Shown here piece after piece: positions 1 to 2,112 of a DNA stretch of 64,000 bases. How positions within the stretch are numbered: position 1 is the first letter of the stretch; every line of letters begins with the position of its first letter. Position numbers and translations under genes: made by a program. Origin of the DNA: Anolis carolinensis (taxonomy: Eukaryota); contig NW_026943825.1 of assembly GCF_035594765.1 (NCBI RefSeq), forward strand, positions 2,792,469 to 2,856,468, read 5' to 3'. Under the pieces are notes generated by a model. That model saw nothing but the letters and a program-made list of their open reading frames with translations. It searched no databases and was not told where the DNA came from.

Positions 1-2112
1 GTCGATGACCCACCGGCCGGGGGTGAAGTCCCGCTCGTGGACGCAGAGCCGGTAGGGTGGCCGGGTGGCCTCCAGCCGCAGCAGCAGCTCCTTCCGCACC
101 CAGTCGGCGTCCGAGTGGCTGTAGGAGACGAAGGCGTGGTAAGTGAAGCGGCGCGAAGGCTGGCCGGACGGGTGGCCGGAGCGGTACTTGGACCGGACGA
201 TGCGGAACGTGGCCCGCAGGTACCACGGGACGTCGAAGCGCCAACACAGCAACGTGGCGGCCCCCACCACGGCGGCCGTGACCGAGACCGTGATGGCCAC
301 CACGACCGTGACGTCGCACTCGGTGACCCACGGGGCGTAATCCGCCACCGGCGTGTCCAGGAGCCGTTCGGGGTGGTAGCACGTCCAGTTCTCCGGCCAA
401 TCCGTGATGGTCAGCTTCCCCTTGGAAAGAGCCTCCCGGAGGAAACTGTGCAACTCGCAGACGCAGTGATAGGGATTGTTGCCGGCCTGGAGTCGCGACA
501 ACCGCGGCATGTTGGCGAAGGATCCTCGCCCGATGGCCCCGAAGGAGTTTCCGTCCACGGTTAGGACTTCCAGACTCGGGCCTTTCCACGCGGTCGGGAT
601 GAACTTGAGCTTGTTGCCGCTCAAACGCAGTTCTCGGAGGTCGACGGCCGCTTCGAAATAACTCAATTCGAGCCGCTCCAGTTGCGAATGCGAGAGATCG
701 AGGAAGCGCAACGTGACGGGCAAACACCGGAATATCTCCATCGTGGTCACCGCGTTGTAGGCCAAACCCAACCAAACGAGTGTTGGGCTCCAACGGCACG
801 GCGAATTATCGTCGTTGCCGATTTGGTTGTGGCTCAAATCCAAGACGGACAAACGTGGCCAAGCGGCGGTCAGTCGCGACACAGTTCGGAGTCGGGTCAC
901 TCGGTTGTAGCTCACGTTGAACTCTTCCAATTTGGGCACGATGTCCACGTAGGAGCATAACTCGTTGTAGATATACTCGTCGAGAAGCCGGTTGTTGGAG
1001 ATGTTGAGCGCGGCGACGTTGCGCATCTCCTTCCAGGCGTCACACGGGACGAAGTTGAAGTTGACGTTGAGTACGGACAAGAAGCTCACGCCGGAGAACC
1101 ACGTGAAGGTCCAGTCGAAGCGCAGAATGTCCGGGTTGCTGATATCCTTCAGCACTAAGCTCCTTAAGGTCAAGTTGGCGATGCCGACGTCCGGCTTGGC
1201 CCGTTGTGGCGACCGAGCGAAATCGATGGAGATGAAGGAGAGGTCCTGGACGGTGGTCTTCTGGACGTTGAGGAGGATCAAACGGAGCAAGTTCTCGTTG
1301 AATTTCCCCCGGAAGAAGACCAGCTCGCGGGCGTCGACACGCTCCAGGTTGGAAAAGATGTCCGCCGGGTGGTTGTAATAAGTGAACTCGAAGAGATTGC
1401 GGAAGCGCAAGTAGCGCAAAGGTTTTCCCCACAAATCCCGCAACATTCGGGGCAAAGCGCCAGGGTTTCGGTCCAAAGCGATGTCGCACCACAAGGACTC
1501 TGTCGTCAGCGTAGCGAAGGCCCCCGGCTGGTACTCGGTCAAGCTCGAGGCCGTCTTCAAGGCGAATTTCTTCAACGGGATGTCCGCCAACGGTTGGAAA
1601 TCCTCGCTGCCAACCGTCAAGATGGCCGGACCCCCCATGGAAAGCTCCTCCAGGTCCTTCAAGCCGCCAAAGACCCCGTCCAACGCCGAGCGGGGATACA
1701 AGTTGTTGGACATGGACAAGACCTTCAGCCTCTTGAGGTCCTTCAGCGCATTGGACGGGATCGTCAGCAACGAGTTGTTGAAGAGGTCCAACTGCTCCAA
1801 CAACAAGTTGGATGCGAAGGCGTCATCGTCAACGTACGAGAGGTCGTTGTAGCGCAAATCGAGGCTCTTGAGGCGGGTCAAGGCCGCGAAATCCCCGGCG
1901 GAGATGCGCCGGATCTTGTTGTAGGACAAGTCCAAGGCTTCCAGTGTTTCCGGGAGGTCCGGAGGGACCCGAATCAGGTTCTGGCCCCGGCAGGAGGCTC
2001 GTCCAGCGGAAGGGACGTGGCAACCGGAGGGAACGGGGGCGCGGGATGAGTGGGGCACCAGCAGGAGCAGCAGCACGAGGAGGGGGACACGGGACCCCCA
2101 GGCACATGGCAT
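1..2112 (-). CDS. TLR18: Toll-like receptor, TLR1/2 subfamily, most similar to fish/amphibian TLR14/TLR18; 3'-partial (704 codons, continues beyond position 1)
   Basis: Manual translation from ATG at 2112 has no stop codon. Signal peptide MPCAWGSRVPLLVLLLLLV, LRRNT (CRGQNLIRVPPDLP), many LRRs (LEALDLSYNKI, LKSLDLRYNDL, LRELRLSGNKL), LRRCT (GNNPYHCVCEL...C...P), TM (VVVAITVSVTAAVVGAATLLCW), TIR box 1 (YHAFVSYS) and box 2 (LCVHERDFTPG). The segment DISNPDILRFDWTFTWF...NVNFNFVPCDAW is recalled as TLR14/18-like. TLR identity is near certain; the subfamily name is less so. Splice acceptor tttctgtctcag lies just upstream (exon starts 2124). Confidence 0.85.
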   Translation of the reverse strand, partial: MPCAWGSRVPLLVLLLLLVPHSSRAPVPSGCHVPSAGRASCRGQNLIRVPPDLPETLEALDLSYNKIRRISAGDFAALTRLKSLDLRYNDLSYVDDDAFASNLLLEQLDLFNNSLLTIPSNALKDLKRLKVLSMSNNLYPRSALDGVFGGLKDLEELSMGGPAILTVGSEDFQPLADIPLKKFALKTASSLTEYQPGAFATLTTESLWCDIALDRNPGALPRMLRDLWGKPLRYLRFRNLFEFTYYNHPADIFSNLERVDARELVFFRGKFNENLLRLILLNVQKTTVQDLSFISIDFARSPQRAKPDVGIANLTLRSLVLKDISNPDILRFDWTFTWFSGVSFLSVLNVNFNFVPCDAWKEMRNVAALNISNNRLLDEYIYNELCSYVDIVPKLEEFNVSYNRVTRLRTVSRLTAAWPRLSVLDLSHNQIGNDDNSPCRWSPTLVWLGLAYNAVTTMEIFRCLPVTLRFLDLSHSQLERLELSYFEAAVDLRELRLSGNKLKFIPTAWKGPSLEVLTVDGNSFGAIGRGSFANMPRLSRLQAGNNPYHCVCELHSFLREALSKGKLTITDWPENWTCYHPERLLDTPVADYAPWVTECDVTVVVAITVSVTAAVVGAATLLCWRFDVPWYLRATFRIVRSKYRSGHPSGQPSRRFTYHAFVSYSHSDADWVRKELLLRLEATRPPYRLCVHERDFTPGRWVID

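What the first reader, a model, noticed from the sequence alone, without database searches (positions are those of the whole stretch)
1..2112. Intact 'fish-type' TLR14/18-like Toll-like receptor in a lizard, missing from the ORF track, next to PEX11B
Seen: an unbroken 704-codon minus-strand frame with signal peptide, LRRs, LRRCT, TM and the start of a TIR domain. The ORF track misses it because the stop codon is outside the window. Known: TLR14/18 is a TLR1-subfamily branch described mainly in fish and amphibians and absent from mammals; human has ITGA10, not a TLR, beside PEX11B. Inference: a retained ancestral receptor with unknown ligand, easily mis-annotated as 'TLR2-like'.
Basis: partly seen in the sequence, partly recalled or inferred. 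Interest (0 to 1): 0.75.

Follow-up and report, generated by a model that had tools for sequence, protein, structure and literature searches.

The report
Lizard TLR14, also retained in birds
This is the anole's TLR14/18 gene, a likely bacterial sensor already catalogued in reptiles, but the same gene also turns up as full-length predicted proteins, mostly labelled 'TLR2', in about 50 species of birds, a group reported to have lost it.

Summary
Observation confirmed: a 704-codon minus-strand frame (2112 to 1) with LRRs, LRRCT, TM and TIR start, 13 kb downstream of PEX11B. A database protein identical over all 704 residues continues to 836 aa with a full TIR. Trees place it in TLR14/18 (100/100) and reject a TLR2 placement. 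The headline is not new: Liu et al. 2020 list this gene as Anolis TLR14 (832 of 836 residues identical) and find TLR14 in nearly all reptiles. Expression was not shown. It likely works as a TLR2-fold receptor signalling through MyD88 to NF-kB; the ligand is unproven, most likely a bacterial acylated component.

Unexpected result: orthologs occur in birds, full-length in 51 of 52 named species checked (8 flagged low quality), from ostrich and kiwi to ducks, owls and falcons. Papers give birds ten TLRs and call TLR14 lost. No chicken, songbird or parrot copy was seen. A falcon gene model fuses it to ITGA10. I found one unremarked goose 'TLR18' table entry. The scan's earlier notes held nothing on this gene.

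The parts
1..2112 (-). TLR14/18 coding sequence, codons 1-704 of 836, uninterrupted; GC 61%, GC3 84%
2038..2112 (-). Likely signal peptide (about aa 1-25)
   Evidence: hydropathy; low pLDDT; no dedicated predictor run
1957..2022 (-). LRRNT cap (C31, C41, nearly invariant)
481..1956 (-). LRR ectodomain (aa 53-544), TLR2-like fold
   Evidence: Pfam; model; Foldseek
1018..1431 (-). Central atypical LRRs (aa 228-365) with TLR14-specific motifs and a TLR2-type VPC loop; aa 331-360 is the most conserved 30-residue ectodomain window
313..480 (-). LRRCT (C550, C552, C578, C599 invariant in 102 aligned rows)
235..312 (-). Transmembrane helix (aa 601-626)
1..141 (-). Start of TIR: box 1 and box 2 with BB-loop Pro698; remainder lies beyond the window
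2113..2126 (-). Candidate splice acceptor (pyrimidine tract, AG at 2126-2125) and 12 nt of 5' UTR
   Evidence: sequence; splicing not shown
2130..3780 (.). AAT/GAT-rich tandem repeats inside the candidate first intron
   Evidence: sequence
4176..4330 (-). Candidate promoter (GC boxes at 4330, 4269, 4257; CCAAT at 4305; TTTAAAA at 4240) and short non-coding exon ending at a GTGAGT donor at 4181
   Evidence: sequence motifs; inferred only
15210..19270 (-). PEX11B, four exons, upstream neighbour on the same strand
   Evidence: Pfam PEX11 on three exons; exon 1 read by eye; the B paralog name is recalled
20000..37350 (+). LIX1L (approximate span), head to head with PEX11B
   Evidence: Pfam LIX1 on two exons; exon 1 gave no Pfam hit; gene name recalled
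40570..45930 (+). RBM8A (approximate; last exon not mapped)
   Evidence: Pfam RRM on two exons; gene name recalled
51282..52502 (-). Ankyrin-repeat gene, likely ANKRD34A
   Evidence: Pfam Ank; gene name recalled

Best explanation
The frame encodes the anole ortholog of vertebrate TLR14/18, a single-pass receptor predicted to fold like TLR2, which likely senses an acylated bacterial surface molecule and likely signals through MyD88 to NF-kB. Shown here: orthology, domain layout, intact TIR motifs in the predicted protein, and strong conservation of the central LRRs. Inferred from TLR1/2/6 structures: ligand binds at the central/C-terminal LRR junction (about aa 300-365) and drives dimerisation with itself or another TLR1-family member. 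Inferred from lamprey and fish orthologs: the paired TIRs recruit MyD88 through the BB loop (Pro698). The gene is ancestral and was kept in squamates, turtles, crocodilians and many bird orders. It likely sat between PEX11B and ITGA10 and was likely deleted from there in mammals. My odds by step: orthology 0.97, functional gene 0.9, MyD88/NF-kB output 0.8, acylated bacterial ligand 0.5.
For: Careful tree (26 rows, LG+G4): TLR14/18 clade 100/100, sauropsid subclade 100/99; TLR2 and TLR1/6/10 are separate 100/100 clades. The 53-row quick tree under a mixture model agrees and follows the species tree. The AU test rejects the eight sauropsid rows plus TLR2 as one clade, p=2.7e-89. Identity is 55% to coelacanth TLR18 against 27% to turtle TLR2 type-2. 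Liu 2020's TLR14_Anca row is the same protein with four differences (row read by eye against P0202). AlphaFold model pLDDT 88.6; the best TM-scores by target length (0.81-0.85) are to TLR2 and TLR1 ectodomains. Across 87 orthologs aa 331-360 is the most conserved ectodomain window (0.82; 16 of 30 positions at 95% or more) and aligns with TLR2's FYD..VFLVPC stretch; that this stretch lines TLR2's lipid pocket is recalled. Reptile TLR14 dN/dS is 0.126 (Liu Table S4, 13-sequence row taken as the reptiles). Lamprey TLR14d binds MyD88, not TRIF, and activates NF-kB (PMC10151648 abstract). No indels were seen in four public runs where they cover the frame.
Against: No expression or function is shown for any reptile or bird copy here. 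The fish ligand evidence I read is induction of the gene after LPS, PGN, LTA, flagellin or poly(I:C), which is not ligand binding. Lamprey TLR14a/b and 14d sit mostly in the ER or cytoplasm of transfected cells, and fish TLR14 is called mainly intracellular. A tilapia paper's title reports TRIF recruitment as well. Bird proteins have a strongly shifted composition that the tree models do not handle. The lipid pocket was not inspected in the model. TLR15 was not represented by a named row.
Confidence: 0.75

Rival explanations
1. It is TLR14/18, but works as an intracellular (ER or endosomal) receptor or co-receptor with a non-lipid ligand or an invariant host partner, possibly using TRIF as well as MyD88.
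For: ER and cytoplasmic localisation of lamprey and fish orthologs; tilapia TLR18 title cites MyD88 and TRIF. The central LRRs are more conserved (0.70) than the flanking LRRs (0.61, 0.65) from hagfish to birds, which suits a fixed partner as well as a fixed ligand.
Against: Fold and the VPC loop are TLR2-type. The BB loop has Pro, as in MyD88-using TLRs (recalled). Localisation data come from overexpression in HEK293-type cells.
Confidence: 0.18
2. The gene is an intact-looking but silent or decaying relic in this lizard.
For: The DNA beyond position 1 was not read, and the upstream exon and promoter are inferred from motifs only.
Against: Full-length orthologs in many squamates; TIR 81% conserved across 87 orthologs; 6 of 9 variants seen in other runs are synonymous and no indels were seen; dN/dS 0.126.
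Confidence: 0.04
3. It is a TLR2 (or TLR1/6/10) paralog, as the database names say.
For: Most tetrapod hits are named 'toll-like receptor 2'. The best solved-structure match is TLR2.
Against: Trees and the AU test. Five signature motifs occur in 52-84 of 87 orthologs and 0 of 15 outgroups. Anolis has separate TLR2.1, TLR2.2, TLR1.1 and TLR1.2 rows in Liu's alignment. No chain named TLR14 or TLR18 appears among the PDB matches listed, so TLR2 is only the nearest solved relative.
Confidence: 0.02

Closest known systems
Anolis carolinensis TLR14 (XM_003230485.1; row TLR14_Anca in Liu et al. 2020, PMC6946030)
   Same: Same gene: 836 aa, 832 identical to P0002.
   Different: Four residues (36, 168, 222, 466); three match variants seen in other public runs.
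Fish TLR18/TLR14, coelacanth TLR18, lamprey TLR14d
   Same: One clade (100/100), shared motifs, 45-55% identity; PEX11b reported nearby.
   Different: The anole coding region in the window is uninterrupted and GC-rich. Teleost hits often come as about 330 aa and 430 aa pieces, which suggests introns (inferred). Functional data exist only for the fish and lamprey copies I read about.
TLR2 (PDB 5d3i, 2z81, 3a79, 2z7x)
   Same: Ectodomain fold (TM-score by target 0.81-0.85), VPC loop, cysteine pattern, TIR boxes.
   Different: Separate clade, about 27% identity, different central LRR sequence; lipopeptide binding and TLR1/6 pairing are untested for TLR14.
Avian TLR repertoire of ten (1A, 1B, 2A, 2B, 3, 4, 5, 7, 15, 21)
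   Same: The bird proteins found here are TLR1-subfamily receptors, mostly named 'toll-like receptor 2'.
   Different: They nest in TLR14/18 inside the sauropsid subclade (beside the alligator) and would be an eleventh avian TLR, absent from the ten-gene lists.

Membership tests
Vertebrate Toll-like receptor | LRR ectodomain with LRRNT and LRRCT caps | tested here: met
   Pfam LRR families; conserved cap cysteines; model
Vertebrate Toll-like receptor | Single TM helix and complete TIR with boxes 1-3 | tested here: met
   TM 601-626; Pfam TIR 660-784 on P0002; aa 705-836 come from a predicted protein, not from window DNA
Vertebrate Toll-like receptor | Cleaved signal peptide | tested here: inconclusive
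   Hydrophobic N-terminus only
Vertebrate Toll-like receptor | Expressed, ligand-triggered signalling | not testable with these tools
   Needs RNA-seq of known type and a reporter assay
TLR14/18 | Monophyly with named fish, shark and coelacanth TLR14/18 and lamprey TLR14d | tested here: met
   100/100; SH-aLRT 100
TLR14/18 | PEX11b in the neighbourhood | tested here: met
   PEX11 exons at 15210-19270; reported as a TLR14 neighbour
TLR14/18 | Match to a published TLR14 reference | tested here: met
   TLR14_Anca row
TLR2 | Monophyly with true TLR2 | tested here: not met
   AU p=2.7e-89; four TLR2 rows, none avian or mammalian
TLR1/6/10 | Monophyly with TLR1/6/10 | tested here: not met
   Separate 100/100 clade; no AU test run for this grouping
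TLR25 / TLR27 | Monophyly with these clades | tested here: not met
   The cod/sucker pair and the chimaera/lungfish pair fall outside; their labels as TLR25-like and TLR27-like are my inference, the sources call them TLR1 or TLR2
TLR15 | Monophyly with TLR15 | not tested
   No named TLR15 row was retrieved
Avian TLR14/18 (side result) | Bird proteins nest in TLR14/18 with a species-tree topology | tested here: met
   12 of 12 bird rows and 4 of 4; motifs in 50-52 of 52
Avian TLR14/18 (side result) | Full-length reading frame | tested here: met
   51 of 52 named species, best model per species; 8 carry NCBI's 'LOW QUALITY PROTEIN' flag
Avian TLR14/18 (side result) | PEX11B-TLR14-ITGA10 gene order | tested here: inconclusive
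   Only a fused falcon model, TLR14 followed by ITGA10; no bird DNA could be read
Avian TLR14/18 (side result) | Transcribed | tested here: inconclusive
   A goose lymphocyte unigene is labelled TLR18 (sequence not seen); Logan contigs encode full-length proteins but their run type is unknown

The most novel reading that the evidence does not exclude
Birds have an unrecognised eleventh Toll-like receptor. TLR14/18 is intact in palaeognaths, waterfowl and many neoavian orders, hidden by extreme GC richness and by the database name 'toll-like receptor 2'. It may have been lost separately in galliforms, passerines and parrots, the main model birds, which would explain the printed claim that birds lost it. 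If so, ducks, geese and pigeons carry a bacterial sensor that chickens lack, and some 'TLR2' expression calls in these birds would be TLR14. The probability given is for: real, functional and not yet described. Orthology alone I put at 0.95; true loss in chicken and songbirds at about 0.6.
Probability: 0.55. Interest if true: 0.68.

Novelty: already known. Interest (0 to 1): 0.45.

Why it matters
The lizard gene itself is published and adds little beyond another case of TLR14 being named TLR2. The bird result matters more. The ten-TLR avian repertoire underlies work on bird immunogenetics, conservation markers and poultry adjuvants. An orphan receptor present in ducks and apparently absent in chicken gives a natural comparison and usable cell systems for finding the TLR14/18 ligand, which is still open. 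It would also narrow 'lost in birds and mammals' to 'lost in mammals and perhaps some bird orders'.

Tried and rejected
No whole genome is held, so the DNA beyond position 1 and the far-side neighbour could not be read. Expression: no RNA holder was listed. Of four runs laid on 1-2150, X1 runs unspliced through the candidate acceptor, X3 carries transposase adapter ends, and no joints were seen, so they look like DNA and say nothing on expression. X1 and X15 contigs extend 624 bases past position 1, but those letters were not shown. The homodimer prediction (aa 181-600, two copies) gave no answer. The careful search on the 53-row tree did not finish (one search is the quick tree). The search for shorter proteins with the owl ectodomain gave 87 hits: one fulmar partial and 86 with a teleost as best reference; no galliform, passerine, parrot or mammal was named, but only 8000 candidates were scored. 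The Pelodiscus 'PsTLR2' paper describes an 803-aa protein that groups with mammal and bird TLR2, so I did not use it as TLR14 expression evidence. The 2026 dot-chromosome paper and Velova 2018 have no TLR14 or TLR18 mention in their main text. Paper searches were swamped by unrelated hits. Carlson 2023 is not held; Khan 2019 was not read. The scan's earlier notes returned only unrelated prokaryotic TIR proteins.

Full report
Observation. Window 2112->1 on the minus strand gives 704 residues without a stop. In 500 shuffles of these bases the longest stop-free run was at most 360 codons. Pfam finds LRR families; hydropathy shows an N-terminal hydrophobic stretch and one TM helix; the LRRCT and TIR boxes 1 and 2 are present. 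Database protein P0002 is identical over all 704 residues and continues to 836 aa with a complete TIR. Four public runs showed nine single-base variants, six synonymous, and no indels where they cover the frame.

Gene structure and neighbours. A pyrimidine tract and AG lie 12 nt above the ATG. About 2.06 kb further up are GC boxes, a CCAAT, a TATA-like TTTAAAA and a GTGAGT donor at 4181. I infer a short non-coding first exon; this is not shown. PEX11B follows on the same strand (15210-19270; Pfam on three exons), then LIX1L, RBM8A and an ankyrin gene (Pfam LIX1, RRM and Ank; the gene names are recalled).

Identity. The 120 listed hits of 298 run from squamates (64-90%) through turtles and alligator (62-66%), birds (55-60%) and amphibians (50-57%) to coelacanth TLR18 (55%) and fish TLR14/18 (48-54%). 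No tetrapod row shows the name TLR14 or TLR18. Outgroups came from the representatives search, of which I named 20 of 150. A 53-row quick tree under a mixture model and a 26-row careful tree under LG+G4 both give a TLR14/18 clade (100; 100/100) separate from TLR2 and from TLR1/6/10. Forcing the eight sauropsid rows together with TLR2 is rejected, p-AU 2.7e-89. No named TLR15, avian TLR2 or mammalian TLR2 row was in the trees.

What is known. Liu et al. 2020 (PMC6946030; passages, supplement parts 5 and 111 and supplement searches; the file is cut at 4 million characters) state that TLR14 is in nearly all amphibians and reptiles, and list Anolis carolinensis TLR14 as XM_003230485.1. Their TLR14_Anca row, read by eye, matches P0202, which differs from P0002 at 4 of 836 residues. 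A 2026 preprint (10.64898/2026.03.23.713620; passages only, figures and supplements not seen) equates TLR14 with TLR18 and names PEX11b as a neighbour. A sea-turtle review (PMC9951749, passages) lists turtle TLR18.

How it likely works. The model (pLDDT 88.6) matches TLR2 and TLR1 ectodomains best by TM-score over the target (0.81-0.85); the top row by E-value is a TLR5 homology model with a poor fit. Across 87 orthologs the central LRRs are more conserved (0.70) than the flanks (0.61, 0.65), and aa 331-360 is the top ectodomain window (0.82). That stretch aligns with TLR2's FYD..VFLVPC region, which I recall as the lipid-pocket rim and dimer face. BB-loop Pro698 is invariant in all 102 aligned rows. 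Lamprey TLR14d binds MyD88 but not TRIF and activates NF-kB (PMC10151648, abstract). I therefore favour an acylated bacterial ligand, dimerisation, and MyD88/NF-kB output. Against this: the fish evidence I read is gene induction, not binding (PMC13457159 and PMC10426278, passages); orthologs are often intracellular; and one title reports TRIF use.

Unexpected result: birds. The owl query returned bird proteins at the top, and cluster look-ups added penguins, gulls, an auk, eagles, New World vultures, cranes, a flamingo, a loon, storks, pigeons, falcons, ducks, geese and swans. I aligned one model per species for 52 named species, over 20 orders by my own assignment, plus 8 unnamed rows. Of these 58 of 60, and 51 of 52 named, cover more than 95% of the ectodomain and TIR and more than 90% of the TM. 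Eight of the 52 carry NCBI's low-quality flag; none of those eight shows an X here, so that check is not informative, and two others have juxtamembrane gaps. I left out shorter isoforms and species seen only as partial models (for example Falco tinnunculus, F. biarmicus, Columba guinea, Eurypyga, Fulmarus). All 12 bird rows form one clade beside the alligator (93) with palaeognaths, then waterfowl, then Neoaves; the smaller tree leaves the turtle-alligator-bird order open. Five motifs occur in 50-52 of 52 birds and 0 of 15 outgroups (the motifs were chosen from the same alignment). The GARP/FYMINK ratio is 1.73 in birds against 0.87 in a turtle, which points to very GC-rich coding DNA and a reason for earlier misses (inferred). 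One unnamed model, 98.8% identical to Falco naumanni TLR14 over 723 residues, runs on into ITGA10. With the recalled human PEX11B-ITGA10 order, this suggests an ancestral PEX11B-TLR14-ITGA10 block.

Print status of the bird result. Liu's bird table has ten columns and no TLR14; 11 of the 33 bird rows I saw (of 37) have a full-length model in my calls, two of them flagged low quality. [quoted passage not shown] Velova 2018 (PMC6107061; main-text term search) has no TLR14 or TLR18. Temperley 2008 (PMC2275738, passages) restricts TLR14 to amphibians, teleosts and lampreys. Eight searches (two swamped by unrelated papers) found no description of avian TLR14/18. The one trace is a 'TLR18' unigene in a goose lymphocyte transcriptome, listed in a table and a gene list without discussion in the passages I read (PMC4376690). 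Carlson 2023 is not held, Khan 2019 was not read, most subscription journals are outside the library, and the supplements of PMC12954441 and of the preprint were not seen, so an earlier report cannot be excluded. Also read in passages: PMC8455134, PMC9808068, PMC11431187.

Limits on the absences. No galliform, passerine, parrot or mammal is named. But searches list only 120 of 298 and 120 of 253 hits, 20 of the 35 members of the largest bird cluster were not listed, and GC-rich genes can be missing from assemblies. Loss in those groups is a lead, not a result.

Verdict. The finding is real and correctly identified, but already known as Anolis TLR14; alone it would score about 0.15. The avian orthologs would be a new member of a known kind that contradicts a current statement and are cheap to test, which raises the overall interest to 0.45.

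Noticed in passing
P0029, P0045, P0046, P0163 and others: Full-length TLR14/18 orthologs in 51 of 52 named bird species checked, mostly named 'toll-like receptor 2'; none seen from galliforms, passerines or parrots.
   Followed up: yes
P0190 (1535 aa): Fused gene model, falcon TLR14 followed by ITGA10, which suggests adjacency in the same orientation.
   Followed up: partly
window 15210-52502: Read from the other end, the order is ANKRD34A-like, RBM8A, LIX1L, PEX11B, TLR14; the LIX1L-RBM8A pair appears inverted relative to the recalled human order.
   Followed up: no
window 4176-4330 (-): Compact promoter-like stretch with GC boxes, CCAAT and a TATA-like motif, then a splice donor: candidate non-coding first exon of TLR14.
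   Followed up: partly
window 2130-15100: The TLR14-PEX11B interval is packed with tandem arrays: AAT/GAT-rich units at 2130-3780, about 40-nt units at 4440-5800 and 8500-11000, and 73-nt units at about 14170-15100.
   Followed up: no
P0072, P0098, P0157, P0061: Several bird models lose or shift frame in the juxtamembrane stretch after the TM, which may mark a bird intron, alternative splicing or a hard-to-assemble GC-rich spot.
   Followed up: no
P0411-P0494: Teleost-like TLR18 fragments cluster at about 330 aa and 430 aa, suggesting introns where the anole frame has none.
   Followed up: no
P0107, P0111, P0129, P0134: Some fish TLR18 models carry extra Pfam families PF01023 and PF13499/PF00036 (recalled as S100 and EF-hand), possibly fusions with a neighbouring gene.
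   Followed up: no
P0203: An 866-aa model adds 30 residues read from the repeat upstream of the ATG, across the candidate acceptor; likely an annotation artefact.
   Followed up: partly
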